From Streptosporangiaceae bacterium (GTDB lineage: Bacteria; Actinomycetota; Actinomycetes; Streptosporangiales; Streptosporangiaceae): DNA of 41,493 nt. Within the stretch, counting starts at the first letter, position 1; each line of letters opens with the position of its first letter. The position numbers and the translations under genes were made by a program. Location of the stretch: the NCBI GenBank assembly GCA_052144275.1, contig JBKQQQ010001039.1:1-41493 (forward strand), written 5' to 3'. Of the stretch, positions 8,495-41,422 are shown piece by piece. The notes under the pieces are model-generated. The model was not told the origin of the DNA. It searched no databases and worked only from the letters and a program-made list of their open reading frames with translations.

Positions 8495-8751
8495 GCGGTG
8501 ATGCCGCTGCTGGGCCGCGCCAAGCACAAGCTCTCGGCCCGGCTGGGCTCGGCCGCCACCGCCGGGGAAGGCACCCAGAACTACCCGTGCGCCGCGCAGG
8601 CCAGGCCTGCGCCGCCGCCGTGCTGGCCGTGCTGGCCATCACCGCCGCCTGGCCCGGCGGCTGGCGGATTGATCCCGTCATCGGCCTGGGCATCGCCGCG
8701 GTAGCAGTGCGCGAAGGCATCCGATCCTGGCCCGGCGACGACTGCTGCTGA
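8495..8751 (+). pseudogene. 3' fragment of a cation-efflux (CDF-like) gene, 5'-truncated and frame-disrupted
   Basis: The fragment translates to MPLLGRAKHKLSARLGSAATAGEGTQNY, matching residues of the intact gene at 40051-40755. An ~11-nt indel near 8606-8620 breaks the frame, and no 5' part is present. Confidence 0.75.
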
Positions 8752-9418
8752 CCGGGACACGCCCCCCTTGGTCCCGGCTGCCACGTACGGCATTGCCGCG
8801 TGTGAGGCTGGGCTCCGGGGCTGTGCGCTTGGCGACGCCGTCCAGCGCGGGCCATGCGCAGTCCTGCCGGAGCGGGCCGCTGGCCGGTGGATGAGCACCG
8901 CCCGCGGCGCGGCTGAGGGCACCGCTCGCTGATCAGGGCGACGGCGGTCTCGCCCGGCGGCGCCGGCCGCTCGTCCCGCTAACGCCCGGGACGGCCCGCC
9001 GGTCATGGGCGGGGTGCCCGCTCAGCCTGCGGCCGGCGATGGGTTTCTTTCATGAATGCCCATGCGAGGATGCCGGAGGCGGCGGTGAGGACGGTAGCCA
9101 CGCCGATCGCGGTGTCGAGGCTGGCGAGGGTGGCGGTGATTCCGCCGATCAGGGCGCCGATGGCGTACCCGGAATCGCGCCAGAACCGGTAGATGCCAAG
9201 CGCGGTCGCCCGCCAGGCGGGGTGGGTCGCGTCGCTGACCGCGGCGAGCAGGGTGGGGTAGACCAGCGCGGTGCCGGTACCGAGCAGGAAGGCCCCGGTC
9301 AGCCCGGCGGCCAGGGCGTGTGAGATGCCGATGGTGATCACGGCCAGCCCGGCGGCCTGGATCAGCATCCCTGCGACGATGGGGGGCTTGCGGCCGATCC
9401 GGTCGGCGAGGTGGCCGG
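8495..9418. repeat. direct repeat copy A (~0.92 kb), matching 40510-41422
   Basis: Base-by-base comparison shows collinear similarity, about 90% in the first third and higher in the MFS part. The boundaries are sharp on both sides. Confidence 0.9.
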
Positions 9419-10304
9419 TGGCGATCATCCCGGCGGCCCACATGAACGGGTAGAAGGCCTTGACGTAGCCGACGCCGGTGACCGAGACGCCGTGCTCGAC
9501 GAGCAGGACCGGCAGGATGACCCAGACCAGGCCGTCGTTGAGGTTGCTGACCAGCCCGGCCTGGCTGACTGCCGCCAGGGTGCGGTCTTTCCAGGAGACC
9601 AGCACGGCGATCTCGCGCACTGACGGGTGCGGCCCGGCCGGGCGGGGGTGCTGGCGGGCCTCGGCGCGGGCCCAGGCGGAGGTGTCGCGGACCGCGAACG
9701 CGGACAGGGCCAGGCCAGCGGCGGCATACCCGGCGCCGAGGAGTTCCGGTGCCGGGCGTAGCCCGTAGCCGGCGGCCAGGTAGCCGGTGGCCAGCGCGGT
9801 GACGGCGACGCCGAGGTAGCCGGCGGTCTCGTTGATGCCCAGGGCGAAACCGCGGCGGCCGGGGCCGATCAGGTCGATCTTCATGTTGACCGTCATCGAC
9901 CAGGTCAGGCCCTGGTTGACGCCGAGCAGGACGTTGGCGGCGATCACCCAGCCCCAGCCGGGGCCGTAGGCGAGCATGAACGGCACGGGCAGGCCGATGA
10001 CCCAGCCGGCCACCAGGACGGCCTTGCGGGTGTAGCGGCCCACGATCGCGCCGCCGACGGCGTTGGTGATCGCCTTGGTGAACCCGAAGACCACGACGAA
10101 CGCGGCGATGGTGATCTCGCCGAGGTGGAACTGCTCGGACCCGACCAGCGGGGTGACGGTGCGTTCCAGGCCGACCATGCCGCCGACGAAGAAGTTCACC
10201 ACCGCGAGCAGGGTGAACTGGGCGAGGTTGGCCCGTAGCCCCAGCCGGATGTCCTCACCGGGGCTGATGCCGGCGGGCGTGCTGGTAGGTCCTGGCCGGG
10301 TCAC
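9003..10304 (-). CDS. MFS transporter
   Basis: The protein has twelve hydrophobic segments and MFS-like loops (GRYTRK, ADRIGRKP). The start is set at GTG 10304, forming a GTGA overlap with the stop of the upstream MBL-rhodanese gene. The Arg-rich extension to 10436 is rejected. Confidence 0.85.
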   Translation of the reverse strand: MTRPGPTSTPAGISPGEDIRLGLRANLAQFTLLAVVNFFVGGMVGLERTVTPLVGSEQFHLGEITIAAFVVVFGFTKAITNAVGGAIVGRYTRKAVLVAGWVIGLPVPFMLAYGPGWGWVIAANVLLGVNQGLTWSMTVNMKIDLIGPGRRGFALGINETAGYLGVAVTALATGYLAAGYGLRPAPELLGAGYAAAGLALSAFAVRDTSAWARAEARQHPRPAGPHPSVREIAVLVSWKDRTLAAVSQAGLVSNLNDGLVWVILPVLLVEHGVSVTGVGYVKAFYPFMWAAGMIATGHLADRIGRKPPIVAGMLIQAAGLAVITIGISHALAAGLTGAFLLGTGTALVYPTLLAAVSDATHPAWRATALGIYRFWRDSGYAIGALIGGITATLASLDTAIGVATVLTAASGILAWAFMKETHRRPQAERAPRP

Positions 10305-17995: not shown

Positions 17996-18441
17996 GTACC
18001 TTTTGTAGTGTTTAACCTCAAGTTCACAAGAGGCAGTAGGCCCGAGACGGGCGATCCGATGATCACCGCGGACGGGCGGCCAGTACCCCGGCCTGTGCAT
18101 CCTGCTCCAGGGACCCGGAAAGCTCGCCCTGGACGAGTCGCGGCCTATTTCCTGAGCTGCTTCTCCTCGGCCTCCTCGGAATGAGCATCCGCAACGAGGT
18201 GGCCCATGGCTTCGTCACCGAAATCAGCCCGGTATACGCCGCACTGATCCTCCGCGCCGCCCTGCTGATCACTGTCGTCGCGCCGCAGCTTCCATCGGCG
18301 GCCCGCGCCGCCAGCCGCGAGAACGACCATGCAGCTGATCAGGGTCCGGGAGGCGTCCAACTCACCCTTTCTCGCCCATCGAAGCCCGGCCCGCCGTCCG
18401 GCGACGTTGCCGCGCCGGGCCGCACGGGCCGCAATCTGTTC

Positions 18442-19329
18442 TCAGCGGACGGTGAAGGTGCCGGCCATGCCTTCCCGGGCGTGGCCGGGGACCGGGCACA
18501 GGTACTGGTAACTGCCGGGCGTGGTGGCGGTGAAGGCGAGGGTCCCGGCGTGCATCCCGGCGGTGGTGGGCTTGCCGAGGAACCACAGCGCCGACCCGGT
18601 GAAGGCGGGGGCGGCGGTCATCATCGGCATGTCCGAGCGCGCGGCGCCCGCAGGCATGATGACCAGCCCGTGCGCCATGTCATCGTCGGCGTTGATCAGC
18701 TCGATGGTAACGTGCGCCCCGGCCGGGACGATGACCGAGGGATCGGTCATCCCGGCGATGCGGAACGACTCGGCGGGCATCGACGGGGAGGCGAGCACGG
18801 CGAAGCTGACGTTCGTGGTGGTGAAGGTGATGATGCGGGCCGCCCGGTCGATGCCGGCCCCGGCCGGGACCTGCCCGCCGAGCTGCCGCGCGGCCGCCGG
18901 GCTGACCCGGGGGCCAGGGGCGCTGGCGAACAGCGTGCCCATGACCGTGCCGGGGTCAGTGCCGCCGATGCCCATCATGCCGGCGGGCAGGGTGCCGCCG
19001 CGCATCCAGCCCGGCGCGCCGGTGCCGCCGGTCATCCACTGGTAGCCGGCCTGGCTCATCATCCAGCCGTCGGACGAGCCGCCGCCCATCATCGTCCCGC
19101 CGCCGTAGTAGCCGCTCATCATCGACCGGTACCAGGAATAGCTGGGGCTGGAGTAGGCGGCGGGACTGCCTGCAGCGGCGGGAACGACCGGGGATGCGGC
19201 CGCGGGCGGGGACGCGGCGGTGGCGGGCTGGCCGGGCGAGCCGCCAGCGGCGATCGCCACCCCGGTTCCCAGGCCGGCCGCGGCCAGGACCGCGGCGCCG
19301 GCCAGGACGCTGATCCGGTTGCGCGTCAT
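18442..19329 (-). CDS. secreted Met/Gly-rich cupredoxin (type-1 copper site)
   Basis: A signal peptide (MTRNRISVLAGAAVLAAAGLGTG) is followed by an M/G/W/Y-rich region (SMMSGYYGGGTMMGGGSSDGWMMSQAGYQWM...). The C-terminal cupredoxin has ligands in DDMAHG and YLCPVPGHAREGM. Confidence 0.8.
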   Translation of the reverse strand: MTRNRISVLAGAAVLAAAGLGTGVAIAAGGSPGQPATAASPPAAASPVVPAAAGSPAAYSSPSYSWYRSMMSGYYGGGTMMGGGSSDGWMMSQAGYQWMTGGTGAPGWMRGGTLPAGMMGIGGTDPGTVMGTLFASAPGPRVSPAAARQLGGQVPAGAGIDRAARIITFTTTNVSFAVLASPSMPAESFRIAGMTDPSVIVPAGAHVTIELINADDDMAHGLVIMPAGAARSDMPMMTAAPAFTGSALWFLGKPTTAGMHAGTLAFTATTPGSYQYLCPVPGHAREGMAGTFTVR

Positions 19330-19485
19330 TCATGATCTCCGTTCCGTCGTCCTGTCCCGCTCCGGGACTGTGCGAGCCGTCCGGGGTTCGTGCCGCTGCC
19401 CGGCGGGTCAGCTCCTGTTCACGGTGCGCCGCAGGTTCCCCGGAGGGCAGGGCCGTCCGGCCCGCCCCCGGGGGACCGAGGTCAC

Positions 19486-19500
19486 TACCCCTGCCGGGTA
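19486..19500. promoter_or_regulatory. palindrome TACCC-N5-GGGTA (CsoR-type, 5-nt spacer) in the cupredoxin/SHOCT divergent region
   Basis: The site reads TACCCCTGCCGGGTA. It overlaps a second hairpin, CCCCTGCC-N7-GGCAGGGG (19488-19510). Confidence 0.4.
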
Positions 19501-19668
19501 TTGGCAGGGGTGGGAACAGCTGCCTGGCCGTGCAGCCAAAGGACCCCCTGGCCCTGAGGATGCCGGGCGGTGCCGGACCTGGAACCGGCGCCGAGCGCGG
19601 TCGCGATGATGAGCCCTGCGATGACGGCGGTGGTGGCCCGCGGGATGAGCGGCCGGGGGTGCGCGCTC

Positions 19669-20038
19669 ATGACCGTCAGCCTGATCGTGCTATGGGGCGC
19701 GGTGATCTTCGGAATCGTGGCGCTGGTCCGCCACGCCGCCCGCGGCGGCCAGCTGTCGGCAGCCCTGCCATAGCGGCAGACTCCGGGAGGAACTGCTCGC
19801 CGAGCGGTCCGCTCGCGGCGAGATCAGCGAAGACGAATACCGGCAGCGCCTGGCGGTGCTGCGGGGCGAGGGCCACCCCGCCGCCGGCCAGGCCCGCCCA
19901 CCGGGACAAGCGCCCGAAGGATCCGGAATCCCGGTCTCCGGGCGCTTAAGCCCTCGCCCTTACTGGTCACGGGTCCTCCTCTGCCCCCCTGACCGCCGGC
20001 ATGACCCAGTCCAGCCACGTCGGCTCGTTTTCGTATAG
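19669..20038 (+). pseudogene. small TM plus SHOCT-domain protein, frameshifted
   Basis: A TM helix (MTVSLIVLWGAVIFGIVALV) is in one frame and stops at 19771-19773. The SHOCT-like segment REELLAERSARGEISEDEYRQRLAVLRGEG continues in the +1 frame from about 19784, with no start codon of its own. Confidence 0.45.
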
Positions 20039-20980: not shown

Positions 20981-21127
20981 GACGGCTCCAGTGGGGGCTG
21001 TATGCATCCGGGGCCGGCCGGGCCTGCGGTACGGCAGGATGGTACGTCCCGGCCATATGGCTGCATTCGGCCTGGCCGCCAGCATGTTTATCGCGGGCGA
21101 AGCCGAGCCGGAGGACTCAATTCTAAG

Positions 21128-21420: not shown

Positions 21421-21495
21421 GTGCACGGCATGGACGCGATGGATGCGGGCGGCAGGGACGAAGGTCATGCCCATCCGGGTCAGGCGACCCGAAAA

Positions 21496-21510
21496 TACCC
21501 TGCCAGGGTA
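21496..21510. promoter_or_regulatory. palindrome TACCC-N5-GGGTA (CsoR-type, 5-nt spacer) upstream of copA
   Basis: The site reads TACCCTGCCAGGGTA and lies 220 bp upstream of the copA ATG. Confidence 0.4.
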
Positions 21511-25234: not shown

Positions 25235-25277
25235 CTTTTAGGCGACGAGCCTATCCGGACGCTGTCCGGTACCGCAA

Positions 25278-25516: not shown

Positions 25517-25530
25517 ACAGGAGACCGGTT

Positions 25531-26385: not shown

Positions 26386-28447
<2,062 letters not shown>

Positions 28448-28505
28448 CCGCTACCCATCCAGCAGCGAGCAGCCAACCCCACGACCAGCCAGCCGGAAGG
28501 ATGCC

Positions 28506-28877: not shown

Positions 28878-29070
28878 GGCGCAGGCGGCCATGCCCGCGC
28901 AGCAGCTGGCAGAACAAGATCTGCGAACACCGGCCAGGTACTGGCCGTACCCGGCAGGAACGGAGAACCCAGGCAGGCTCCGCCTGATACCGCCGAGGTT
29001 GCGGGTTCCGCAGGCGTTCCCGTGCAGATGAGCGCATCCTCCGTTGGTAGGCCACGTTGCGGAGGTTGCC

Positions 29071-30690: not shown

Positions 30691-30704
30691 CAAACTCAGC
30701 TCAA

Positions 30705-30792
30705 CCGTCGGAGTCCTCGACCCATAGGGTCGCTACGCTCCGTCCGGGACTTCGCCCGGAAGGAGTGGCGCTTCGCGCCGTTCGGCTGACGG
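30705..30792 (+). other. cloverleaf-like structured spacer (7-bp closing stem plus three hairpins)
   Basis: The closing stem pairs 30705-30711 with 30786-30792. The hairpins are 30718-30732 (6 bp), 30743-30760 (6 bp) and 30767-30779 (5 bp). The strand is assumed from the flanking genes. Confidence 0.35.
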
Positions 30793-30820
30793 CTAGCGCG
30801 CAGGCTGGCACGTTTGGCGC

Positions 30821-32473
30821 GTGGCTGATGACTTCTCCGCGCGGTACGGCGATCTGATCAATGGCAGTTATGACTGCGTGGACCGGGTGGTGCTGAACGC
30901 CTGGTTCCCGATGGGGGTGAACCCGGGCGGGTTCCGGACCTGGTGGCGGCGGCTGCACGGCGGCGATGATCAGCTGGATAACACGCACCTGATGCGGATG
31001 GCCGGGCGGTTCGCCCGCCGGGTCAAGGCCTGGGCGGCCGCGAACGGCGTCCCGGTCATCTTCTGCAAGGCCGGGGAGCGTAAGCACCTGATCGCCGAGG
31101 AGTACCTGGAGACTCACGTGGTCACCACAGGGGTGTTCCTGGTCCTGGCGGCCAAGGCGCCGGCCGCGGTATGGAAGGTGCACCGGTCCGCGCGCGGGGT
31201 CATCACGAACCTGGAGAAGAAGAGGGAGTACGTCTACCACTACAGCTTCCACATCATGGACCCGGCGTTCGGGCACCTGGCCATCAAGATGTCCGGGCAC
31301 CCGCCGTTCGGGGCGCAGGTGATGCTCAACGGCCACGAGTACGTCGCGGTCGCCGCGCAGGGGGAGGGCATCGGCTTCACGAAGGAGGGGAACTGTTTTA
31401 CTGAGATCGCGGATCCGCAGCGCCTGGCCCGGGTCGCAGATGCCTGGCCGCGTGACGCGGCTATAGGGCGCCTGGGCCAGGTCTGCGACCGGTGGATCTA
31501 TTCGGCCTGCCTGTGCTTCGGCCTGGACCTGGCCGAGCAGCAGGCCAGCGGGTTCTGCTACGCCTACTCGGTCTACCAGGCCGAGTATTCCCGGAACCTG
31601 CTGTTCCGATCTGGGGCGCAGATGGAGAAGCTGTTCGACCGGATCCTCGACCGGACCCGGTCCCGGCTGGACATCCCAGCGCTGCGGACCCTGTTCGGCC
31701 TCAAGGCCCGGCCCCATCACAACCGCAAGCACGGCCCGCCCGCGCAAGACATCGTGATCGAGAAACCGCAGTACGGCCTGAGCTGGTTCCAGATCCGCTT
31801 CGGGCGGCTCCAGCTGAAGGCCTACACCAAGGGCGAACACGTGCTGCGCTTCGAGGCCACCGTGCACAACACCAAAGAGCTGCGCTGCAGCCGCAGCCTG
31901 GAAAACTTCGCCCAGATCATCACCTTGCTCGCCGAGATGGCGGACCGGTTCGCCACCACGCTAGATTGCGCCGACATCGGCTTCCTGCCCGACGGGGTGC
32001 TGGATGAACTGCCGCTGCCCGCCCAGACCGGGACCGGCACGATCGCCGGGGTCGACCTGAACAAGCCGCGGATCCGGGCCGCCCTGTCTGCGGCGCTCGC
32101 CCTGGCCCCGGCACCTGGCGGGTTCACCGTCGCCGAGCACGCCGCCAAGGTCCGCACGATGGCCGGGCACGACGGCTACACCACCCGGCAGGCCGCCTAC
32201 GACCTGCGCAAGCTCCGCGGCAAGCAGCTCATCGATAAACCCGGCAGGACCCGCCGCTACCACGTCCCGCCGGACGGTGCCCGCACCATCGCCGCGCTGC
32301 TTACACTCCGCGATCACGTCATCGCGCCCATCCTGGCCGGGGTCCGCAGCCCCCGCATGGGCCGCAAGCCCAAGATCTGGACCGCCGTCGACCGCGACTA
32401 CGAGACCCTGCGCATCGGCATGCATACCCTGTTCCAGCACGTCGGCATAGACACGCTCCCCGCAGCCGCATAG
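30821..32473 (+). CDS. uncharacterised ~550-aa protein, paralogue B (C-terminal winged-helix-like domain)
   Basis: The ORF starts at GTG 30821. Blocks are shared with paralogue A (YHYSFHIMDPAFGHLAIKM...LNGHEY; LRFEATVHN; QAAYDLRKLRGKQLI). Confidence 0.7.
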   Translation: MADDFSARYGDLINGSYDCVDRVVLNAWFPMGVNPGGFRTWWRRLHGGDDQLDNTHLMRMAGRFARRVKAWAAANGVPVIFCKAGERKHLIAEEYLETHVVTTGVFLVLAAKAPAAVWKVHRSARGVITNLEKKREYVYHYSFHIMDPAFGHLAIKMSGHPPFGAQVMLNGHEYVAVAAQGEGIGFTKEGNCFTEIADPQRLARVADAWPRDAAIGRLGQVCDRWIYSACLCFGLDLAEQQASGFCYAYSVYQAEYSRNLLFRSGAQMEKLFDRILDRTRSRLDIPALRTLFGLKARPHHNRKHGPPAQDIVIEKPQYGLSWFQIRFGRLQLKAYTKGEHVLRFEATVHNTKELRCSRSLENFAQIITLLAEMADRFATTLDCADIGFLPDGVLDELPLPAQTGTGTIAGVDLNKPRIRAALSAALALAPAPGGFTVAEHAAKVRTMAGHDGYTTRQAAYDLRKLRGKQLIDKPGRTRRYHVPPDGARTIAALLTLRDHVIAPILAGVRSPRMGRKPKIWTAVDRDYETLRIGMHTLFQHVGIDTLPAAA

Positions 32474-32509
32474 ACAACATTTTGTCGATCAGAAAATGCA
32501 AGCTCCTAG

Positions 32510-32626
32510 ATGTGCAGTCCCGTCGTCTGTGATCGCTGCAAGAAGATCACCTGGGCCGGCTGCGGCGCCCACGCCGAGCAGGTCCTGGCCAGCGTCCCGG
32601 CGGAGAAACGATGCACCTGCGCCTGA
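32510..32626 (+). CDS. 38-aa Cys-rich protein (not in the ORF track)
   Basis: The ORF reads MCSPVVCDRCKKITWAGCGAHAEQVLASVPAEKRCTCA. It has six Cys and high GC3, and resembles small conserved actinobacterial Cys-rich proteins I recall. It is preceded by the AT-rich hairpin GACAA-catt-TTGTC (32473-32486). Confidence 0.5.
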   Translation: MCSPVVCDRCKKITWAGCGAHAEQVLASVPAEKRCTCA

Positions 32627-32932
32627 CTGGCCGCCGGGCCGGGCTGGCCTGAACACCGGGTGCTTCCCGCACGTACCGGCGATGGTCGCCGGATGCCGGG
32701 ACTTTCGTCGGTGACGGCCGCGCCCCGGGCGCACGGGACCGGTGATGCATGGATTCGGTGCCGGTGACCCTCACGGCCGGCCTGCCCCCGCCCGCTGATC
32801 CGGCCGCGCTGCCGGCCGGGACGGCCAAGTGCGCACCGTGCGGCCGCGCCAGCCGCCTACCTCGGCCGCGAACTTGCAAGGGCCGGGCACACGCCGCCCG
32901 CCGGCACCCGCTACCAGCAAGACGCCGCGCTC

Positions 32933-33096
32933 GGCTAACCCGAAGTTCCCCCCAAGCCGATGAGTCCACGTGTTTGCGCAGCTGGTAGCGCCCTTGATCG
33001 CGGAAATTACATGTCTACGTAGTCATGAGCTGAGGTTGTTTCTCCTGGTCAAGGCCCATGTGGGCTCGCCGCCAGGGGGAACTACGGGCTAACCCG
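32933..33096. repeat. MITE-like unit: ~10-bp direct repeats flanking a 144-bp lower-GC core with 9-bp terminal inverted repeats
   Basis: GGCTAACCCG occurs at 32933-32942 and 33087-33096. AGTTCCCCC (32944-32952) is complementary to GGGGGAACT (33075-33083). The interior is AT-richer and has the hairpin GCGC-AGCTGGTA-GCGC (32976-32991). Confidence 0.35.
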
Positions 33097-33157
33097 CCAG
33101 GGCGCGGGGGCCTGAAGTGGCTCAGGCCTGCGGCGGGAAAGCGTCGCACGCGGCTGC

Positions 33158-33373
33158 CTACAGGAGCAGGGCGGCGGCGAGCTGGCGTGCCTCACCGGCG
33201 GTGAGCCCGGCCCAGGTGCCGTCCCCGGTCCCGGAAGGGGCGCTGACGCCGAGGCTGACGCGCTGCGCCGGGTGCGGGGCCCCGCCGAGGATGAGATGCC
33301 CTACCTGGATCTCCCGGCCGCAGGTGGTCCGGAAGCTGACGTGATGGCGGACGCCTGATGTGCTGGTGTCCAT
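33158..33373 (-). CDS. hypothetical 71-aa protein
   Basis: GC3 is high on this strand. It lies 55 nt downstream of the DUF302 gene in the same orientation. The C-terminal segment reads WAGLTAGEARQLAAALL. No family recognised. Confidence 0.45.
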   Translation of the reverse strand: MDTSTSGVRHHVSFRTTCGREIQVGHLILGGAPHPAQRVSLGVSAPSGTGDGTWAGLTAGEARQLAAALLL

Positions 33374-33428
33374 GGCATGCCTCCGCGCAATCGCAGGATG
33401 TGCCGGGCCGGAGCGAGGCCCGGCGACG

Positions 33429-33818
33429 TCATGAGGCGAGCGCGGCGAGGGCGGCGCCGAGGCGCCGCGCCACCTCGTCAGCGACCGGCTTCAGCTCGGG
33501 CCGTCCGGTCAGGGCGACCATGACCTGCGGGTCGAGCGCCTCCACGACGGTGCCGCCCCCCGCAGCGCGGACGACGACATTGCAGGGCAGCAGCAACCCG
33601 ATGCTCCGGTCGACCTCAAGTGCCTGATGGGCGAACGGCGGGTTGCAGGCGCCCAGGATGACGTAGTCCTCGATCTGCTCCCCGAGCTTGTCCCGCAGGG
33701 TGGCAGTCACATCGATCTCGGTGAGCACGCCGAACCCCTGGCCCTCCAGGGCATCGCGCACCCGGGCGACCGCGTCGGGGAACGGGAGATCCACGGTGAT
33801 GCTGGTGCCGTAGCTCAC
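33429..33818 (-). CDS. DUF302-domain protein
   Basis: FPDAVARVRDALEGQGFGVLTEIDVTATLRDKLG...ILGACNPPFAHQAL...LLPCNVVV is the DUF302 signature. The start forms a GTGA overlap with the trx stop. Confidence 0.8.
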   Translation of the reverse strand: MSYGTSITVDLPFPDAVARVRDALEGQGFGVLTEIDVTATLRDKLGEQIEDYVILGACNPPFAHQALEVDRSIGLLLPCNVVVRAAGGGTVVEALDPQVMVALTGRPELKPVADEVARRLGAALAALAS

Positions 33819-34192
33819 CGGTCCGCCCCTTGCGCTTCCTGCACGGCGAGCTTGCCGCGGACCTCGTCCATGTCCAGGTCGCGGACGGCCTGGATGAGCT
33901 GCTCCAGCGCCGCGGCCGGAAGCGCGCCAGGCTGGGAGAACACCAGGATGCCGTCGCGGAACACCATCAGGGTCGGGATGGAGCTGATCCGCGCGGCGGC
34001 GGACAGCTCGGGCTGGTCCTCGGTGTCGATCTTGCCGAACGTGATGTCCGGGTGCTGCCTGCTCGCGGCCTGGAACACCGGCGCGAACATCCGGCACGGC
34101 CCGCACCAGGAAGCCCACCAGTCGACCAGGGTGATCCCCGGCTGGGTGACCGTCTCCTCGAACGTCTCCTTGGTCAGTGCGATGGCGCTCAT
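33815..34192 (-). CDS. thioredoxin
   Basis: The WCGPC active site lies in LVDWWASWCGPCRMFAP, and the fold length is typical. ATG 34192 follows GGGAG. Confidence 0.9.
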   Translation of the reverse strand: MSAIALTKETFEETVTQPGITLVDWWASWCGPCRMFAPVFQAASRQHPDITFGKIDTEDQPELSAAARISSIPTLMVFRDGILVFSQPGALPAAALEQLIQAVRDLDMDEVRGKLAVQEAQGADR

Positions 34193-34221
34193 GATCTCCC
34201 TCACTTCCCGACAGGCCTAAC

Positions 34222-34237
34222 ATACCCCACCGGGTAT
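34222..34237. promoter_or_regulatory. CsoR/CstR-type operator ATACCCCACCGGGTAT (N4 class), site 7
   Basis: The site lies 29 nt upstream of the thioredoxin start codon. Confidence 0.55.
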
Positions 34238-34356
34238 AACAGGCGGCGCTGGGCGTTATTCCGCGCCTGGATCCCAGCTGGCATATCCCTGTCCCGCAGA
34301 GCTGGATTGGCCCGGACCGCCGGATCCGTCAGGGCTCTCAGGCCATGCGCGGCTAG

Positions 34357-35324
34357 GGCGTGTCCCGTGGATCTTCGAAGCGGGGTCGTGTAGACCAGTG
34401 CGATGCCTGACCGACTGAATCGTCATGACCTGACCGATGAGGAATGGGAGCGCCTTCGGGTGCTCCTGCCGTCCGGCCCGCAGCAGCGCGGCGGCCGCTG
34501 GGCCGATCACCGGACGGTGATCAACGGGATCTTCTTCCGGACCCGGGCGGGCTGCCCGTGGCGGGACCTGCCCGAGGGCTTCGGGAACTGGAAGACCGTC
34601 TATAACCGGCATCGCCGCTGGTCCCTGGACGGGGCCTGGGAGCAGATCCTGGACGGGCTCCGGGCCGGGTGCGACGAGGCTGAGGGCAGGGACTGGACAG
34701 TGAGCGCGGACTCCACCGTCGCCCGGGCCCATCAGCACGCGGCCGGGGCCCGCCGCGTCCCGGCCGCTGATGATCTCACGGGGGGCTCTGGCGAATGACA
34801 GGAAATCGGGCCGGGAGGCGATCGGCCGGTCCCGGGGCGGGCTGACGACCAAGATCCACCTGGCCGCTGACCTGCGCTGCCGCCCCATCGCGCGGCTGAC
34901 CAGCTGCGGCCAGCATGGTGACTCCCCGCGGTTCGTCCCGCTGATGGATGCGATCCGGATCCGCCGCCGCGGGAAAGGACGGCCACGCCGGCGGCCCGGC
35001 CGGGCAATGGCGGATAAGGCGTATTCCTCCCGCGCGAACCGCGCCTGGCTGCGCCAGCACGGCATCCAGGCGGTCATCCCGGTCAAGGAGGACCAGAAGA
35101 AGCACCGCCGTGACCGGGGCCGGGCCGGCGGCCGCCCGCCGGCCTTCGACGCCTCCTGGTACAAAAAGCGCAACACCGTGGAGCGCTGCTTCAGCAAGCT
35201 CAAGCAGTTCCGGGCGGTGGCCACCCGTTATGACAAGCGTGAGCGGATTTACCAGGGCACCATCGACGTGGCCTCGATCAGCATCTGGCTGCGCGACCCC
35301 GTCCCATGATCCACGGGACACGAC
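34357..35324 (+). mobile_element. IS5-family insertion sequence (IS427-like, two-frame transposase)
   Basis: Perfect 15-bp terminal inverted repeats (CGTGTCCCGTGGATC) lie at 34359-34373 and 35308-35322. The element is flanked by CTAG at 34353-34356 and 35325-35328, a candidate target duplication. It encodes a DDE transposase. Confidence 0.85.
34403..35309 (+). CDS. IS5-family transposase (orfA 34403-34798 and orfB 34770-35309, joined by a frameshift)
   Basis: orfA has the DUF4096-type N-terminus (LTDEEWERLRVLLP...GRPWADHR-like, NGIFFRTRAGCPWRDLP). orfB has the DDE C-terminus (GRSRGGLTTKIHLAAD, ADKAYSS, YKKRNTVERCFSKLKQFRAVATRYDK). The 29-nt overlap contains a G6 run (34780-34785). orfB is +1 relative to orfA. 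Confidence 0.85.
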
Positions 35325-37085
35325 CTAGGTGCCTGGTAACCCGGCTGCGCGGGCTGGCTGAAGGCAAGCTGGGGGAAGCGGGAACCAGCGCAGCGCCTCG
35401 AAATCCGGTGGCAGCCCGGTGGGCCCGTCATCCAGGTGCGTCGGCCGGGCGGCCAGGATGTGCCGGGCCTGCCGCAGGTAGCCGGGGAACGCCTCCTCGC
35501 CGGCGCGGCCATGCTGCCGGGGGTAATTCATCTCGCCGTCCGGGCCGTAGCGGATGTCGGACAGGGTAACCTGCGGCCGGGGCGGCCCGGCGGCGTGCCG
35601 CCACAGGCCCGTGCGCGGGTCAAACCGGTAGTCCGGAAGCAGGCGGTATCCGTTGGCGGCGATCAGCTCGACAGCGGCGGCGATGTAGTCTGCGGTGGCC
35701 GGGGAGATGAAGTAGTTGAGGTTCACCCTGGTCCAGCCGGGCTTGACCCCGTCGCAGCCGTGCCCGACCTCCTCGCGCAGCGCATGGGAGCGGGCCGGGC
35801 CGATGGCCAGCAGCCGGTGCCCGTACGGGCCGGCGCACGAGCAGCCGCCGCGGGCCTGGATGCCGAACAAGTCGTTGAGCACCGCGACGACGAAATTATG
35901 GTGCAGGTACCGGGTGCCATGGCGGATGCGGAACGAGACGATCGACAGCCGCGCCGCCTGGTGGCTGCCGAGCACCTCGATGCCAGGGGTGCCGGCCCAG
36001 CGGCGCAGCACGTGCCGCCACAGCTGTTCCTCGCGGGCGGCGATCAGGTCGGTGCCGACCGCCTGCTTGAGCGCGAAGACCAGGCCGGCACGGATGGACT
36101 CGATGATCGCGGGGGTGCCGCCCTCCTCGCGCGCGACCGGGTCGTCGAGATACCGGTGGCCGATGGGGTCGACGAACGCCACGGTTCCCCCGCCCGGGGC
36201 GGTCGGCACGGTGTTGCGCCCCAGTTCACGACGCACGACCAGGACGCCGGGTGTCTGCGGGCCGCCGGGGAACTTGTGCGGGGAGAGAAACAGCGCGTCC
36301 TTGTGGTCGCCGGCGCCCGGGCGAGACTCTGCGACGCGGATGGGAAGGTACGGCCCGGCGGCGGCGTAGTCCCAGAACGACAGCGCGCCGTGGGCGTGCA
36401 GCAGCGCGGCGATCGCGTCGGCGTCGGTCAGGATGCCCGTCACGTTGGAGGCGGCGGAGAAGCTGCCGATGAGCAGCGGGCGCTTGGCGTACCGGGCCAG
36501 CTGGCGTTGCAGGTCGGCCAGGTCGATGTGGCCGTCGGCGTCCTCGCCGATGACCACCACCTCGGCGATGGTCTCGCGCCAGGGCAGCTCGTTGGAGTGA
36601 TGCTCGTACGGGCCGACGAACACCACCGGCCGTTCGGCCTCCGGGATGCTCCGGCTGAGCTCATATCGTTCGTCCAGCCCGGCCGGGATGCGCAGCTCCA
36701 AGATGCCGATGAGCTTGTTCACCGCGGCGGTCGCGCCGGACCCGCAGAAGATCACCAGGTCGTCGCCGGTGCCGCCGACCGCGTCGCGGATGATCCGCCG
36801 GGCGTCCTCGCGCAGCCGGGTGGTGGCCAGGCCGGTGCCGGAGCTTTCGGTGTGGGTGTTGGCGTACCGGAGCAGGACCTCCTGGCGGATGAAGTCCTCG
36901 ATGAAGTCCAGCGACCGGCCCGAGGCCGTGTAGTCGGCGTAGGTGACCCGGCGGGGCCCGAACGGGCCGTCCATCAGTTCGCCCTCGCCGAGGATCCCCC
37001 GACGGATCCGCTCCACCAGCGGTGACGTCAGCACCCCGGTAGGAGCCCGTGTCTCCGGCCAGTCCGGCGTGAGTCCAGTAGCCAT
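35325..37085 (-). CDS. class-V aminotransferase-fold PLP enzyme (cysteine-desulfurase-like, long form)
   Basis: YADYTASGRSL, EHHSNELPW, the SPHKFPGGPQTPG (PLP-Lys) region and ARGGCSCAGPYGH are present. The protein is about 586 aa. The stop TAG lies inside the CTAG flanking the IS. Confidence 0.8.
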   Translation of the reverse strand: MATGLTPDWPETRAPTGVLTSPLVERIRRGILGEGELMDGPFGPRRVTYADYTASGRSLDFIEDFIRQEVLLRYANTHTESSGTGLATTRLREDARRIIRDAVGGTGDDLVIFCGSGATAAVNKLIGILELRIPAGLDERYELSRSIPEAERPVVFVGPYEHHSNELPWRETIAEVVVIGEDADGHIDLADLQRQLARYAKRPLLIGSFSAASNVTGILTDADAIAALLHAHGALSFWDYAAAGPYLPIRVAESRPGAGDHKDALFLSPHKFPGGPQTPGVLVVRRELGRNTVPTAPGGGTVAFVDPIGHRYLDDPVAREEGGTPAIIESIRAGLVFALKQAVGTDLIAAREEQLWRHVLRRWAGTPGIEVLGSHQAARLSIVSFRIRHGTRYLHHNFVVAVLNDLFGIQARGGCSCAGPYGHRLLAIGPARSHALREEVGHGCDGVKPGWTRVNLNYFISPATADYIAAAVELIAANGYRLLPDYRFDPRTGLWRHAAGPPRPQVTLSDIRYGPDGEMNYPRQHGRAGEEAFPGYLRQARHILAARPTHLDDGPTGLPPDFEALRWFPLPPACLQPARAAGLPGT

Positions 37086-37117
37086 CACGCCCTCCCTTCT
37101 CCGAGCCTACTTCCAAT

Positions 37118-37133
37118 ATACCCTCGGGGGTAT
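37118..37133. promoter_or_regulatory. CsoR/CstR-type operator ATACCCTCGGGGGTAT (N4 class), site 8
   Basis: The site lies 32 nt upstream of the class-V PLP enzyme start codon. Confidence 0.55.
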
Positions 37134-37200
37134 AGACAGGAAATGGGCCGGATTCGCCGTCCCTTGACTCTATGGCTCTGTTAGTGCATCCTAACCGTTA

Positions 37201-38535: not shown

Positions 38536-38562
38536 CCGGCGGGTCTGACCGGCGGGGTGACC
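38525..38562. repeat. three tandem copies of a 13-bp unit (GGCGGGTCTGACC x2 plus the variant GGCGGGGTGACC)
   Basis: The repeat was read directly from the sequence. It spans the stop of the SRPBCC gene and the 5' break of the ImmA-like fragment. Confidence 0.8.
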
Positions 38563-39095
38563 TGGGACATCACTTGCTAGGTGATCCTCGCGAGGTCGTT
38601 GAGGAAGCCGAGCACGACATGTTCGCTGATACCGCCGTCGAGCGGCGGGCAAGTGCATTCGCAGGGCACCTATTGATGCCGGAACGAGGCGTTCGGTCGG
38701 TGCTGGCGTGGCTCGGTGTAGAACCCAACACGGTCAGCGAGCGGGCTGTCATAGCGTTGATGGAGCACTTCGGTGTGTCGATGGCAGCCCTGATTTACCA
38801 GCTCAACATCATAGGCGTGCTGAGCTACGACGACGGACAGCAGTTGCGCAGCCGCGGTGTGACATCCCTCGTCGAGCGGCACCGCGATGTTGCCCCATCG
38901 GGCGCAGCAACCACTGTTAGCCACATCCGTCGGCCCCCGGAGCGGCTGACGCGCCAGACGCTCACTGGGGCCCAGGAGCAACGCCTAGGCCTTTCAGTAC
39001 TTGCATCCTTGCTAGAACGTGACGACGACGAACAGCTGTGTGGTTTCCCGAAACCAGGACCTTGGCCGTTCATCTGCCGCTTCAACAAGCGGTGA
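38559..39095 (+). pseudogene. ImmA/IrrE-family metallopeptidase, 5'-truncated inside the HExxH motif
   Basis: The frame reads ..GDLGHHLLGD...ERRASAFAGHLLMPERGV, which matches the conserved ImmA/IrrE (COG2856) core. The first His, the upstream domain and any XRE partner are missing. GC is lower than in the flanks. Confidence 0.5.
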
Positions 39096-39697: not shown

Positions 39698-40054
39698 CCT
39701 GATGCCGAAGTCGAGCGGGTGGAGCTTGCCCCGGCTGCGGCCCTGTTCCGATCGCTGGCTGATCCCGCGCGGCTGATGATCGTGCGCCGCCTGGCCAGCG
39801 GCCCGGCGCGGGTGACCGACCTGGTATCCGCGCTGGGGCTGGCGCAGTCGACAGTGTCAAAGCACCTGGCGTGCCTGCGGGACTGCGGGCTGGTGACCTC
39901 GGAGCCCGCCGGGCGGGCCTCGGTGTTCCGGCTGGCCCAGCCCGCGCTGGCCGAGATGCTGGCCGCGGCGCAGACGGTGCTGGCCGCGACGGGCAACGCC
40001 GTCGCCTTGTGCCCAGCCTGGGGAATAGACGCCTGCGGCGGGGAAGTGCCGTGA
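39683..40054 (+). CDS. ArsR/SmtB-family metal sensor, CmtR-like Cys pattern
   Basis: The wHTH has the HLACLRDCGLV motif (Cys-x3-Cys in the recognition helix region, as I recall for CmtR). It also has C-terminal Cys residues (ALCPAWGIDACGG). Confidence 0.75.
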   Translation: MAMIAPDAEVERVELAPAAALFRSLADPARLMIVRRLASGPARVTDLVSALGLAQSTVSKHLACLRDCGLVTSEPAGRASVFRLAQPALAEMLAAAQTVLAATGNAVALCPAWGIDACGGEVP

Positions 40055-40755
40055 CTGCTGCCCGCCCGGAACGCCAGCCGGAGATTCCCGTCCTGGATGC
40101 CTGCTGCCTGCCGGGCGGCTCGTGCGCGGAGCCGAGAATGCCGACGGTGCGCGATGCGGGGTGGCGGCGCGCGGCCCGGCTGGCGCGCTGGCTGGCGTGG
40201 GCCAGCCTGGGATGGATGTGCACCGAGGGTGCCATCGGGCTGTGGCAGGGCTTGGCGGCCGGGTCGATCGCGCTGACCGGATGGGCGCTGGGCAGCGCGG
40301 TGGAGGGCCTGGCCAGCGTGATCGTGATCTGGCGGTTTACTGGGACCCGCGCCCTGTCCGGGACCGCCGAGCGGCGCGCCAAGCGCGCTGTCGCTGTCTC
40401 GTTCTGGCTGCTGGCGCCCTATATCGCCGCCGAATCCGTGCGCGACCTGGTCACCGGTCACCACTCCGGGACCACCGTGATCGGGATCGCGCTGACCGCG
40501 GTCGCGGTGGCGGTGATGCCGCTGCTGGGCCGGGCCAAGCACAAGCTCGCGGCCCGGCTGGGCTCGGCCGCGACCGCCGGGGAAGGCACCCAGAACTACC
40601 TGTGCGCCGCGCAGGCCGCCGCCGTGCTCGTCGGCCTGGCCGTCACCGCCGCCTGGCCTGGCGGCTGGTGGATCGATCCCGTCATCGGCCTGGGCATTGC
40701 CGCGGTAGCAGTGCGGGAAGGCATCCGGTCCTGGCACGGTGACGACTGCTGCTGA
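40051..40755 (+). CDS. cation-efflux (CDF-like, membrane domain only) transporter with Cys-rich termini
   Basis: The start forms a GTGA overlap with the arsR stop. There are 5-6 TM helices. Cys clusters lie at the N-terminus (DACCLPGGSC) and C-terminus (HGDDCC). The motif GRAKHKLAARLGSAATAGEGTQNYLC is present. Confidence 0.7.
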   Translation: MTAARPERQPEIPVLDACCLPGGSCAEPRMPTVRDAGWRRAARLARWLAWASLGWMCTEGAIGLWQGLAAGSIALTGWALGSAVEGLASVIVIWRFTGTRALSGTAERRAKRAVAVSFWLLAPYIAAESVRDLVTGHHSGTTVIGIALTAVAVAVMPLLGRAKHKLAARLGSAATAGEGTQNYLCAAQAAAVLVGLAVTAAWPGGWWIDPVIGLGIAAVAVREGIRSWHGDDCC

Positions 40756-41422
40756 CCGTGACACGCCCCCGCGGTCCGGCTGCCAGGTATGGGGTCGCCG
40801 CGCGTGAGGCCGGGCTCCGGGGCTGTGCGCGCTTGGCGGCGCCGTCGGGCGCGGGCTATGCGCAGTTTGCCGGAGCGGGCCGCTGGCAGGTGGATGAGCA
40901 CCGCCTGCGGCGTGGCTGAGGATACCGCTCGCTGATCAGGGCGACGGCGGTCTCGCCCGGCGGCGCCGGCCGCTGGTTCCGCTGAGGTCCAGGGACGGCC
41001 CGTCAGTGATGGGCGGCGTGCTCGCTCAGCCTGCGGCTGGCGGTGGGTTTCTTTCATGAATGCCCATGCGAGGATGCCAGAGGCGGCGGTGAGGACTGTG
41101 GCCACGCCGATCGCGGTGTCGAGGCTGACGAGGGTGGCGGTGATTCCGCCGATCAGGGCGCCGATGGCGTACCCGGATCGTGCCAGAACCGGTAGATGCC
41201 AAGCGCGGTCGCCCGCCAGGCGGGGTGGATCGCGTCGCTGACCGCGGCCAGCAGGGTGGGGTAGACCAGGGCGGTGCCGGTACCGAGCAGGAAGGCCCCG
41301 GGTCAGCCCGGCGGCCAGAGCGTGGGAGATGCCGATGGTGATCACGGCCAGCCCGGCGGCCTGGATCAGCATCCCTGCGACGATGGGGGGCTTGCGGCCG
41401 ATCCGGTCGGCGAGGTGGCCGG
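40510..41422. repeat. direct repeat copy B (~0.91 kb), matching 8495-9418
   Basis: See copy A. Similarity ends abruptly at 41422, and the sequence to the window end is unrelated. Confidence 0.9.
41000..41422 (-). pseudogene. 3' fragment of an MFS transporter gene (decayed copy of 9003-10304)
   Basis: Relative to copy A, the stop codon is lost (TGA to TCA at about 41003). There is a 1-nt deletion (GGAATCGCGCC vs GGATCGTGCC) and a 1-nt insertion (CCCCGGTCAG vs CCCCGGGTCAG). The N-terminal two thirds are missing. Confidence 0.8.

What the first reader, a model, noticed from the sequence alone, without database searches (positions are those of the whole stretch)
8495..41422. Imperfect ~0.92-kb direct repeats bracket a 31-kb segment, with reciprocal gene decay in the two copies
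8495-9418 and 40510-41422 are collinear copies of the 3' end of the CDF-like gene, an intergenic region, and the 3' end of the MFS gene.
- Copy A keeps the MFS gene intact. It carries only a 5'-truncated, frame-broken CDF tail that starts 4 nt after an unrelated stop codon.
- Copy B keeps the CDF gene and its CmtR-like regulator intact. Its MFS part has a lost stop, two indels and an abrupt end at 41422.

The 31,091 bp between the repeats holds both sulfur modules, the copper module, the unknown paralogues and the IS. This geometry is what is left by integration of a circular element through a shared segment, by a segmental duplication followed by divergence, or by an amplifiable unit of the kind known in Streptomyces. 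The repeats remain substrates for deletion or amplification of the whole block.
Basis: seen in the sequence. Interest (0 to 1): 0.7.

Follow-up and report, generated by a model that had tools for sequence, protein, structure and literature searches.

The report
Leftover of a tandem gene-block duplication
The two 0.93-kb repeats are the overlap between two incomplete, head-to-tail copies of a ~13-kb metal/sulfide-stress gene block that related soil actinomycetes carry only once, so this is an old, decaying duplication scar and not an active mobile or amplifiable element.

Summary
Window 8495-9426 and 40510-41430 are collinear direct repeats, 91.3% identical over 936 aligned columns. Copy A has a dead CDF tail and an intact MFS gene. 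Copy B has an intact ArsR-CDF pair and a dead MFS tail.

It is not an assembly artefact. Other assemblies of the same strain cross all the junctions.

Long metagenome contigs from close relatives carry one copy of a ~13-14-kb block S, in this order: M78 peptidase, unknown gene, ArsR, CDF, MFS, MBL-rhodanese, BigR-like regulator, Cys/Met-PLP enzyme, NifU, ATP-grasp, methyltransferase, TetR, ArsR, AHSA1, SRPBCC.

The window holds a circular permutation of S. A head-to-tail joint lies at 38559-38564. There the end of S meets the middle of the M78 gene through a 3-nt microhomology. The repeats are the stretch shared by copy 1 (mid-CDF to the end of S) and copy 2 (mid-M78 to mid-MFS). The 32-kb spacing equals the ~13.2-kb unit plus 18.8 kb of extra DNA (18344-37145).

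The outer junctions at 8494-8497 and 41422-41430 also look illegitimate. Nothing indicates site-specific or Campbell-type integration, or amplification.

The event is old: the copies differ by about 9%, comparable to the distance between these strains. Overall this is an ordinary relic of genome evolution. A recurring 45-nt motif at module boundaries is a side lead.

The parts
8491..8497 (.). J1: the left outer junction. The native DNA downstream of the HAAS gene is joined to the middle of the CDF gene, with GCG (8495-8497) as 3-nt microhomology.
   Evidence: L162 (95%) and L163 (92%) are collinear with the window through DinB-PadR-HAAS up to 8492 and 8497, then continue with other DNA. The same-strain contig L166 crosses J1 at 99.98% identity.
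8495..9426 (+). Repeat copy A. It comprises the CDF pseudogene tail (8495-8752, frame broken by an 11-nt insertion at 8600-8610), the intergenic region (8753-9002) and the 3' end of the intact MFS gene.
9003..10304 (-). Intact MFS transporter gene (433 aa). It is the last gene of the sulfide-stress module, with MBL-rhodanese at 10301-11665 (-) and a divergent BigR-like ArsR-rhodanese regulator at 11749-12426 (+).
   Evidence: Pfam MFS_1 E = 3e-39; NCBIfam; gene calls in L166 and L174
8495..38564 (+). Partial copy 1 of block S, running from mid-CDF to the end of S, 29 nt after the SRPBCC stop. It is interrupted by 18.8 kb of extra DNA.
   Evidence: Collinear with the single-copy relative L174 positions 3033-15055 at 96-97% identity.
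18344..37145 (.). 18.8 kb absent from the L174-type single-copy relatives. It holds a cupredoxin gene, an unknown gene, a Cu P-type ATPase, TauE, PIG-L, CsoR, a second MBL-rhodanese, two unknown paralogues, an IS5-family IS (34353-35328) and a class-V aminotransferase. It begins with the 3' half of the 45-nt boundary motif (18344-18364).
   Evidence: In L174, positions 13484 and 13642 correspond to window 18343 and 37146.
38559..38564 (.). Jt: the head-to-tail joint of the duplication. The end of S is joined to the middle of the M78 peptidase gene, inside its HExxH codons, through the microhomology CTG.
   Evidence: Three-way comparison of the window with the end of S (about 15055) and the start of S (about 962) in L174, L178 and L180. 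The joint is also crossed by L164 and by the Logan contig L165.
38559..41430 (+). Partial copy 2 of block S. It holds the 5'-truncated M78 peptidase remnant, an unknown gene (39038-39601), ArsR (39656-40054), CDF (40051-40755), the intergenic region and the MFS pseudogene tail.
   Evidence: Collinear with L174 962-3281 and 4383-4885 at 92-95% identity.
40510..41430 (+). Repeat copy B. It comprises the 3' end of the intact CDF gene, the intergenic region and the MFS pseudogene tail (41007-41430, minus strand; stop lost, two 1-nt indels).
41422..41430 (.). J2: the right outer junction, where the middle of the MFS gene is joined to unrelated DNA.
   Evidence: Alignment. L164 (GCA_052143975.1) is 99.94% identical, crosses J2 and runs 2.67 kb further into arsD-arsA.
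41431..41493 (.). X: 61-63 nt of flank between J2 and the 45-nt motif, which starts at the very end of the contig. Its right-hand ~25 nt are homologous to DNA that lies 4.8 kb to the right of S in L174.
   Evidence: No protein homologue was found.

Best explanation
The repeats are the overlap between two incomplete, directly oriented copies of one ancestral ~13-kb gene block, S.

Shown directly by comparison:
- Close relatives have S once, with ArsR-CDF and MFS-MBL-rhodanese adjacent and convergent.
- The window has S circularly permuted. Copy 1 runs from mid-CDF to the end of S. It then meets copy 2 at a head-to-tail joint (38559-38564). Copy 2 runs from mid-M78 to mid-MFS.

Inferred sequence of events:
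1. An illegitimate, microhomology-mediated (CTG) exchange duplicated S in tandem.
2. Two further illegitimate events removed the left part of copy 1 (J1, microhomology GCG, just after the HAAS gene) and the right part of copy 2 (J2). J2 was probably a deletion running into the native right flank of S.
3. Either before or after this, 18.8 kb of copper/sulfur genes entered copy 1.

Selection has kept one working copy of each gene: MFS in copy 1 and ArsR-CDF in copy 2. The redundant fragments have accumulated frameshifts. The structure has no function of its own. It is a scar, and the residual homology is a weak substrate for a deletion that would destroy both genes.
For: Repeat and decay pattern.

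Single-copy block in the same gene order on five long ENA contigs (L174, L175, L177, L178, L180) and compactly on L179, L082 and L083.

Segment-by-segment collinearity:
- window 38559-39040 and 39038-40758 match L174 962-3281
- window 8928-18343 matches L174 4383-13484
- window 37146-38564 matches L174 13642-15055

Joint anatomy with CTG microhomology inside the HExxH codons of M78.

The arithmetic fits. A unit of about 13.2 kb plus 18.8 kb of extra DNA gives the observed 32.0-kb spacing.

All three junctions recur in other assemblies of the same strain. L166 crosses J1. L164 and L165 cross Jt. L164 crosses J2.

J1 lies exactly where synteny with L162 and L163 stops.

L099 comes from another sample and is about 95% identical. 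It keeps HAAS', a 28-nt CDF' fragment, the intergenic region and MFS in the same order. So the copy-1 truncation is old and still eroding.

X plus the motif to the right of J2 resemble DNA 4.8 kb to the right of S in L174, on the expected side and strand.

Unique changes fit relaxed selection on the dead MFS tail: 2-4 in A against 11-15 in B, depending on the reference. In the neutral intergenic region they are balanced with L179 as reference, 14 against 16.

Microhomology join points are a known signature of bacterial tandem duplication (PMC11111574).
Against: - No relative with a complete S-S tandem was found, so the intermediate is inferred.
- With L083 and L082 as reference, copy B is about twice as far away as copy A, even in the CDF tail where B is the live copy.
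- Tree signals conflict. The CDF tail groups A with L083. The MFS tail groups A with B. So recombination or gene conversion, or a foreign origin of copy 2, cannot be excluded.
- The left flank of S in the relatives was not visible beyond 240 nt, so J1 cannot be shown to be a simple deletion.
- The left ~35-45 nt of X match nothing.
- All same-strain contigs appear to come from one sample series (consecutive SRR318404xx run numbers and similar GenBank accession prefixes), so independence of the assemblies is limited.
Confidence: 0.72

Rival explanations
1. Patch insertion. A 2.9-kb fragment (M78'-unknown-ArsR-CDF-MFS') copied from another S block, possibly from a related strain, was inserted by illegitimate recombination just after the end of a resident S. 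The resident S had already lost its own ArsR-CDF. The direct-repeat geometry would then be incidental.
For: Copy B has the longer branch when L083 or L082 is the reference: 46 unique events in B against 18 in A. In the intergenic region A-B is 11.7%, B-L083 is 11.6% and A-L083 is 6%. Copy-2 genes are 3-7% from the relatives, against 2-3.5% for copy-1 genes. The island family is highly mosaic, with MFS tail fragments in several other contexts (L089, L105, L107). The fragment restores a function, ArsR-CDF, that copy 1 had lost.
Against: With L179 as reference the neutral intergenic counts are balanced, 14 against 16. The CDF region is also fast-evolving between single-copy relatives, at 94.7-96.3% for L174 against L179. 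So the extra divergence of copy 2 is not diagnostic. A and B share derived states in the MFS tail at 9091, 9095 and 9372. This model needs as many events as the tandem model, plus a coincidental direct orientation and placement at the end of the block.
Confidence: 0.15
2. Campbell-type integration. A circular 32-kb element carrying ArsR-CDF-MFS recombined homologously with a chromosomal 0.93-kb remnant (HAAS|repeat|X), leaving hybrid repeats at both ends.
For: The geometry is formally what a single crossover gives. An undivided ArsR-CDF/MFS arrangement exists in relatives (L082, L083, L179). A 97-nt identical block could mark an exchange.
Against: - Between the repeats there is no replication, transfer or integrase gene, only one IS.
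- The interval contains a random-looking head-to-tail joint inside a gene, not an att or ori region.
- There is no switch in which copy resembles the relatives along the repeat.
- No HAAS|repeat|X site appears in L162 or L163 or elsewhere.
- A 97-nt identical run is not unusual at the 4.3% divergence of the MFS tail (my estimate, p about 0.3).
- The model still needs J1 and J2 to be explained separately.
Confidence: 0.06
3. Assembly artefact. The contig is a chimera joined through the repeat, or a collapsed or misjoined repeat from a mixed population.
For: The window is a whole 41,493-nt contig of an NCBI assembly. It ends 63 nt after copy B, exactly where a multi-copy 45-nt motif begins. Such places are typical assembly break points.
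Against: L166 (32.3 kb, GCA_052916005.1) crosses J1 and copy A at 99.98% identity. L164 (15.2 kb, GCA_052143975.1) crosses Jt, copy B and J2 at 99.94% and continues into arsD-arsA. The Logan contig L165 crosses Jt. L099 from an unrelated JGI sample has the HAAS-CDF'-MFS linkage. The intact MFS and CDF reading frames span the repeat boundaries.
Confidence: 0.03

Closest known systems
Bacterial tandem (head-to-tail) segmental duplications formed at microhomologies, followed by loss or decay of redundant parts. Experimental example with microhomology join points: PMC11111574.
   Same: There are two directly oriented copies of one segment. A novel end-to-start joint carries 3 nt of microhomology. 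Relatives have a single copy. Redundant gene parts decay.
   Different: Laboratory duplications are young, identical and unstable. This one is old: about 9% divergence and three assemblies with the same form. It is trimmed on both outer sides, so only 0.93 kb is still duplicated. It also carries 18.8 kb of extra DNA inside copy 1.
Complementary (reciprocal) degeneration of duplicated genes, as in the duplication-degeneration-complementation idea. This comparison rests on my own knowledge.
   Same: Each copy has lost a different gene, so together the two copies retain one working set.
   Different: Whole neighbouring genes are lost by truncation at rearrangement junctions. No sub-functions of one gene are partitioned, and no new function is implied.
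Streptomyces amplifiable units of DNA (AUDs), 14-33 kb units flanked by direct repeats of several hundred nt at more than 90% identity (PMC5869714).
   Same: The size (32 kb), the direct repeats of about 0.9 kb at 91% identity and the actinomycete host are all comparable.
   Different: There is no evidence of amplification, and all assemblies give a single path. The repeats are gene fragments whose recombination would kill both genes. The organism appears to be a Streptosporangiales-like soil MAG rather than Streptomyces, judging by the source names of the closest proteins and loci.
BigR/Blh-type sulfide-stress operon and ArsR(CmtR-like)-CDF metal efflux pair, as the gene content of the repeats
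   Same: The gene set is a BigR-like ArsR regulator, an MBL-rhodanese and a membrane exporter, plus an ArsR and a small CDF-like protein.
   Different: The regulators score below the equivalog cut-offs: BigR 43 against 155, CmtR 67 against 150. The CDF scores below the TIGR01297 cut-off, 41 against 82. Functions are therefore inferred from family only.

Membership tests
Tandem segmental duplication (relic) | Two copies of the same ancestral sequence in direct orientation | tested here: met
   8495-9426 against 40510-41430, 91.3% identity over 936 columns
Tandem segmental duplication (relic) | A novel head-to-tail joint: the end of the unit abuts the start of the unit | tested here: met
   At window 38559-38564 the DNA after the SRPBCC stop (L174 about 15055) is joined to mid-M78 (L174 about 962), with CTG microhomology
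Tandem segmental duplication (relic) | Relatives carry the unit once, in the unpermuted order | tested here: met
   L174, L175, L177, L178, L180, and in compact form L179, L082 and L083
Tandem segmental duplication (relic) | Both copies complete and adjacent | tested here: not met
   Copy 1 lacks its first ~2.1 kb (J1). Copy 2 lacks everything after mid-MFS (J2). Copy 1 also holds 18.8 kb of extra DNA. Hence 'relic'.
Campbell-type integrated circular element | Replication, transfer or integration genes inside the bracketed segment | tested here: not met
   Pfam and NCBIfam scans of the ORFs in 8495-41430 find only an IS5-family transposase. Several proteins remain of unknown function.
Campbell-type integrated circular element | Hybrid repeats: similarity to donor and recipient switches at a crossover point | tested here: inconclusive
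   A-unique and B-unique sites are interleaved along the repeat with no clean switch. Tree signals are mosaic.
Campbell-type integrated circular element | An unoccupied site (flank|single repeat|flank) in relatives | tested here: not met
   L162 and L163 continue with unrelated DNA after HAAS. The arsD relatives L171-L173 have arsR-ACR3-DUF2180 or glyoxalase upstream.
Site-specific integrative island (att repeats plus integrase) | Short identical att repeats at the ends, with an integrase next to one end | tested here: not met
   The repeats are 0.93-kb gene fragments at 91% identity. The tyrosine recombinase (617-1672) lies 6.8 kb outside the left repeat. There is no tRNA gene.
Streptomyces-type amplifiable unit of DNA | Direct repeats flanking a unit of tens of kb | tested here: met
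   Spacing of 32.0 kb. Compare PMC5869714.
Streptomyces-type amplifiable unit of DNA | Observed tandem amplification, or copy-number variation | not testable with these tools
   No read data are available. Three assemblies show the same single-copy path.
Composite transposon | IS copies at both ends of the segment | tested here: not met
   There is a single IS, at 34353-35328, inside the segment. The repeats contain no transposase.

The most novel reading that the evidence does not exclude
A ~45-nt sequence, CCAACACAnnAGCAAYACAAGTCCGGGTCCGGGAGGSGYCCWAC, recurs with unrelated DNA on both sides at module boundaries in this island family. It lies 61 nt to the right of J2, where the window contig ends. 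Its 3' half forms the left edge of the 18.8-kb extra DNA. It sits at the left edge of the ArsR-CDF-MFS block in L179, abuts the HAAS fragment in L099, and lies about 600 nt from an integrase gene in L174.

It could be the recombination site of a tyrosine recombinase that shuffles metal and sulfide resistance cassettes in soil actinomycetes. On that reading, the duplication relic would be one product of a cassette-exchange system not yet described for this group.
Probability: 0.15. Interest if true: 0.55.

Novelty: new member of a known kind. Interest (0 to 1): 0.25.

Why it matters
On its own it matters little. It is a well-resolved natural example of how a tandem duplication ages. All three illegitimate junctions are identified, single-copy ancestors are in hand, each copy has lost a different gene, and one relative shows further erosion.

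It is useful for annotation. The CDF tail at 8495-8752, the MFS tail at 41007-41430 and the M78 remnant at 38565-39095 should be called pseudogenes. The '31-kb unit' should not be annotated as a mobile element.

It also shows that this metal, sulfide and arsenic island is a rearrangement hot spot among related soil actinomycete populations. The recurring boundary motif may deserve its own study.

Tried and rejected
- The PLSDB plasmid collection held only distant matches of 72-78% identity.
- The GTDB genome scan with the CDF protein did not find the source genome. It showed ArsR-CDF pairs without the MFS gene downstream in all 80 loci, so these were useless for the junctions.
- Flank X (41431-41493) could not be identified. 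tblastn and blastn-short against all loci found nothing. The 24-aa peptide was too short for the protein search. The 41-aa ORF found no homologue. Rfam found nothing in the X/motif/arsD-leader region.
- An exact look-up of the MFS protein found no record.
- An empty-site test through the closest HAAS homologues found different DNA downstream in each, not X. The same test through arsD homologues found canonical ars operons upstream.
- A crossover test inside the repeat found no switch.
- My early inference from L083 alone, that copy B is an older or foreign lineage, was weakened once L174, L178 and L179 were added. Counts were then balanced, and the CDF proved fast-evolving in general.
- The dN/dS-style counts are too small to separate the models: CDF tail 10 synonymous against 7 non-synonymous, MFS tail 9 against 8.
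- The 97-nt identical block as evidence of gene conversion is not significant at the local divergence. Only 3-5 shared derived sites support it.
- The motif is absent from IMG/VR viral contigs, and no inverted partner lies nearby.
- My first GC3-based gene call put a gene at 11662-12228 (-). The real gene is 11749-12426 (+).

Full report
OBSERVATION. A self-comparison of the window finds one long direct repeat, 8495-9426 against 40510-41430. It is 91.3% identical over 936 columns, with 62 mismatches, 8 gap openings and E = 0.
- Copy A begins 4 nt after the TAA stop of the gene ending at 8490.
- Its CDF tail (8495-8752) carries an 11-nt insertion at 8600-8610 that breaks the frame.
- The MFS gene at 9003-10304 (-) is intact.
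- Copy B has intact ArsR (39656-40054) and CDF (40051-40755, GTGA overlap with the ArsR stop).
- In copy B's MFS tail the stop is lost and there are two 1-nt indels. Similarity ends sharply at 41422-41430.
- Identity is 93% in the CDF tail, 88% in the intergenic region and 96% in the MFS tail.

GENE CONTENT (Pfam and NCBIfam). The window is 72% G+C actinomycete DNA and contains no tRNA gene. From left to right it holds:
- DUF6788, a tyrosine recombinase (617-1672), an HTH protein, a Ser/Thr kinase, ArsR-LMWPc, glyoxalase (gene call and Pfam mark on the same-strain contig L166), ChrA, DinB, PadR and a HAAS-domain protein
- [copy A]
- MFS, MBL-rhodanese, a divergent BigR-like ArsR-rhodanese regulator (11749-12426 +), Cys/Met-PLP enzyme, NifU, ATP-grasp ligase, two small unknown genes, methyltransferase and TetR
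- cupredoxin, an unknown gene, Cu P-type ATPase, TauE, PIG-L, CsoR, a second MBL-rhodanese, two unknown paralogues, an IS5-family IS and a class-V aminotransferase
- ArsR, AHSA1, SRPBCC, an M78 peptidase remnant, an unknown gene, ArsR and CDF
- [copy B]

IS IT REAL? The window is a complete 41,493-nt contig of an NCBI assembly. It ends 63 nt after copy B, so an artefact had to be considered. Other assemblies of the same strain cross every junction.
- L166 (GCA_052916005.1, 32.3 kb) equals window 4657-25877 with 4 mismatches.
- L164 (GCA_052143975.1, 15.2 kb) equals window 30044-41493 with one 7-nt indel. It continues 2.67 kb further into arsD-arsA.
- The Logan contig L165 equals window 37865-40897.
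- L099, from an unrelated JGI sample, keeps the HAAS-CDF'-intergenic-MFS linkage.

WHAT THE RELATIVES SHOW. The ArsR-CDF pair is widespread in Actinomycetota, but the 80 closest genome loci have no MFS gene downstream. Metagenome contigs L082 and L083 (96.5% identical) and L179 carry ArsR-CDF and MFS-MBL-rhodanese undivided and convergent.

Five long ENA contigs (L174, L175, L177, L178, L180; 55-297 kb) carry a single block S. Its order is M78 peptidase (420 aa), unknown gene, ArsR, CDF, MFS, MBL-rhodanese, BigR-like regulator, Cys/Met-PLP enzyme, NifU, ATP-grasp, methyltransferase, TetR, ArsR, AHSA1, SRPBCC. BLAST maps the window onto L174 as follows:
- window 38559-39040 and 39038-40758 match L174 962-3281
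- window 8928-18343 matches L174 4383-13484
- window 37146-38564 matches L174 13642-15055

The window is therefore S circularly permuted. At 38559-38564 the DNA 29 nt after the SRPBCC stop is joined to the middle of the M78 gene, inside the HExxH codons. The two parental sequences share only CTG. This is the head-to-tail joint of a tandem duplication.

The repeats are the part of S present in both partial copies. Copy 1 runs from mid-CDF to the end of S, and copy 2 from mid-M78 to mid-MFS. The unit is about 13.2 kb. Adding the 18.8 kb of the window that the L174-type contigs lack (18344-37145) gives the observed 32.0-kb spacing.

THE OUTER JUNCTIONS.
- J1. L162 (95%) and L163 (92%) are collinear with the window through DinB-PadR-HAAS up to 8492 and 8497, then continue with DNA related to each other but not to the window. 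The window switches to mid-CDF with GCG as the only shared bases. This is an illegitimate junction with no att-like or IS-like feature.
- J2. After 41422-41430 come 61 nt (X), a 45-nt motif, and then the native arsD upstream region. Homology to L172 starts at L164 position 11483. L171 and L172 have arsR-ACR3-DUF2180 upstream instead.
- The motif and about 25 nt to its left also occur 4.8 kb to the right of S in L174, on the same strand. Both sequences have GCGGCCGATCC...GTGGCCGG about 75 nt to the left of the motif. J2 may therefore be a deletion from copy 2 into the native right flank of S. This is inference.

AGE AND DECAY. In a four-way alignment with L083, the unique events are 18 in A, 46 in B and 16 in L083. 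The dead MFS tail of B has 12-15 unique changes against 2-4 in the live A copy. This is relaxed selection.

With L083 as reference, B looks older than the split between A and L083. With L179 as reference, the neutral intergenic region is balanced, 14 against 16. The CDF region is also fast-evolving between single-copy relatives. Trees conflict: the CDF tail gives (B,(A,L083)) and the MFS tail gives ((A,B),L083). This points to recombination among strains or local gene conversion.

The safe statement is that the copies diverged about as long ago as these strains did. L099 shows that the HAAS-CDF' arrangement predates a ~5% strain split and has since lost two further pieces, 8145-8555 and 8600-8885. 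Counts of synonymous against non-synonymous changes (10:7 and 9:8) are too small to discriminate between models.

MECHANISM.
- Shown: there are two partial head-to-tail copies, three junctions with 3 nt of homology or less (or none identifiable), and single-copy relatives.
- Inferred: S was duplicated in tandem by illegitimate recombination, then both outer parts were lost, with 18.8 kb entering copy 1 at some stage. Selection kept MFS in copy 1 and ArsR-CDF in copy 2.

The rivals are these:
- Insertion of a second partial copy, possibly from another strain. The outcome would be the same and I cannot exclude it.
- Campbell integration of a circle through the 0.93-kb segment. This is disfavoured because there are no mobility genes, no crossover switch and no empty site.
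- Misassembly. This is disfavoured by the other assemblies.

Homologous recombination between the repeats is still conceivable, given a longest identical run of 97 nt. It would delete 32 kb and leave both genes dead. There is no evidence that it happens.

COMPARISON WITH WHAT IS KNOWN. This is an aged example of a microhomology-mediated tandem duplication (compare PMC11111574) with complementary loss. It has the formal geometry of a Streptomyces amplifiable unit, which is 14-33 kb with repeats over 90% identical (PMC5869714). It lacks the defining observation, amplification. It is not an att-flanked island or a composite transposon.

SIDE LEAD. The 45-nt motif occurs in four unrelated contexts, plus as a half copy in the window. 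Each time it lies at a synteny break. The window contig ends exactly where the motif begins. It has no Rfam match and no match in viral contigs. It may be a recombination site or a portable promoter or leader. I could not decide between these.

VERDICT. This is an ordinary relic of genome evolution. Interest is 0.25.

Noticed in passing
L164 11440-11484 (starts at the last bases of the window, 41491-41493); window 18344-18364 (3' half only); L179 2992-3037; L174/L175 19914-19965; L099 10806-10852 (-): A ~45-nt sequence, CCAACACAnnAGCAAYACAAGTCCGGGTCCGGGAGGSGYCCWAC, recurs with unrelated DNA on both sides. Each copy lies at a boundary between gene modules or at a synteny break. In L174 it lies about 600 nt from an integrase gene. 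It has no Rfam match, no viral-contig match and no nearby inverted partner. It could be a recombination site or a portable promoter or leader.
   Followed up: partly
window 1-41493: The window is an entire NCBI contig (its proteins are listed with a longest contig of 41493). Its right end falls exactly at the start of the 45-nt motif, which suggests the motif is multi-copy in this genome and broke the assembly. The ends of other same-strain contigs fall next to the two unknown paralogous genes, at about 28968 and about 32518.
   Followed up: partly
window 37908-37914: The window has 7 extra bases (TGTCACC) relative to the otherwise identical L164 and L165. They split the AHSA1-like gene, which is 168 aa in L164 but a 124-aa ORF here. 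This is either a strain-level frameshift or an assembly error.
   Followed up: partly
window 7484: L162 and L163 have an ABC-2 permease and ATPase gene pair (about 1.8 kb) between DinB and PadR. The window lacks it, with the breakpoint at 7484.
   Followed up: partly
window 18061-21454: L085 is 97% identical over window 9039-18060 and joins 18060 directly to 21455. It therefore lacks the cupredoxin gene and the 477-aa unknown gene but has the Cu-ATPase. The copper region is itself polymorphic among close relatives.
   Followed up: partly
L089 9710-10393; L105 48-305; L107 4513-4776: 5'-truncated MFS tail fragments, like copy B, occur in other metagenome contigs. There they are joined directly to the start of the Cys/Met-PLP operon or to a methyltransferase 3' end. 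In still other relatives the 3' neighbour of the MFS gene is a TetR gene or the ArsR-AHSA1-SRPBCC operon. The 3' end of this MFS gene is a recurrent rearrangement point.
   Followed up: partly
window 34353-35328: An apparently complete IS5/IS427-type insertion sequence of about 976 nt. It has 21-nt terminal inverted repeats (CTAGGGCGTGTCCCGTGGATC and CTAGGTCGTGTCCCGTGGATC) and a two-ORF transposase with a frameshift (DUF4096 plus DDE_Tnp_1).
   Followed up: partly
window 29044-30690 and 30821-32473: Two adjacent paralogous genes of about 550 aa with no Pfam or NCBIfam match. The second is alone in its 90% cluster apart from same-strain contigs.
   Followed up: no
window 11749-12426 (+): The gene divergent from MBL-rhodanese is an ArsR/BigR-like HTH fused to a rhodanese domain. 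The ORF on the opposite strand (11662-12228) that a GC3-based call prefers is spurious. A second sulfur module (CsoR plus MBL-rhodanese, 26386-28447) lies in the extra DNA.
   Followed up: partly
L001 about 1260-1285 (window 40559-40690 equivalent): A 1.3-kb JGI contig is 99% identical to the region upstream of copy B. It ends with what looks like a ~130-nt internal deletion of the CDF tail and carries copy-A-type bases at two sites. This is either a further variant or a contig-end error.
   Followed up: no
L174/L178/L180 about 3282-4382: Three of the single-copy relatives have about 1.1 kb of extra DNA between the CDF stop and the MFS stop, with a 141-aa ORF called there. It replaces 173 nt of the intergenic region. 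L179, L082 and L083 lack it.
   Followed up: no
L164 11490-11560: The arsD upstream region contains two palindromes, ATGCCACGTGGCAT and TCGACGCTTGTCGA. They are likely operator sites.
   Followed up: no
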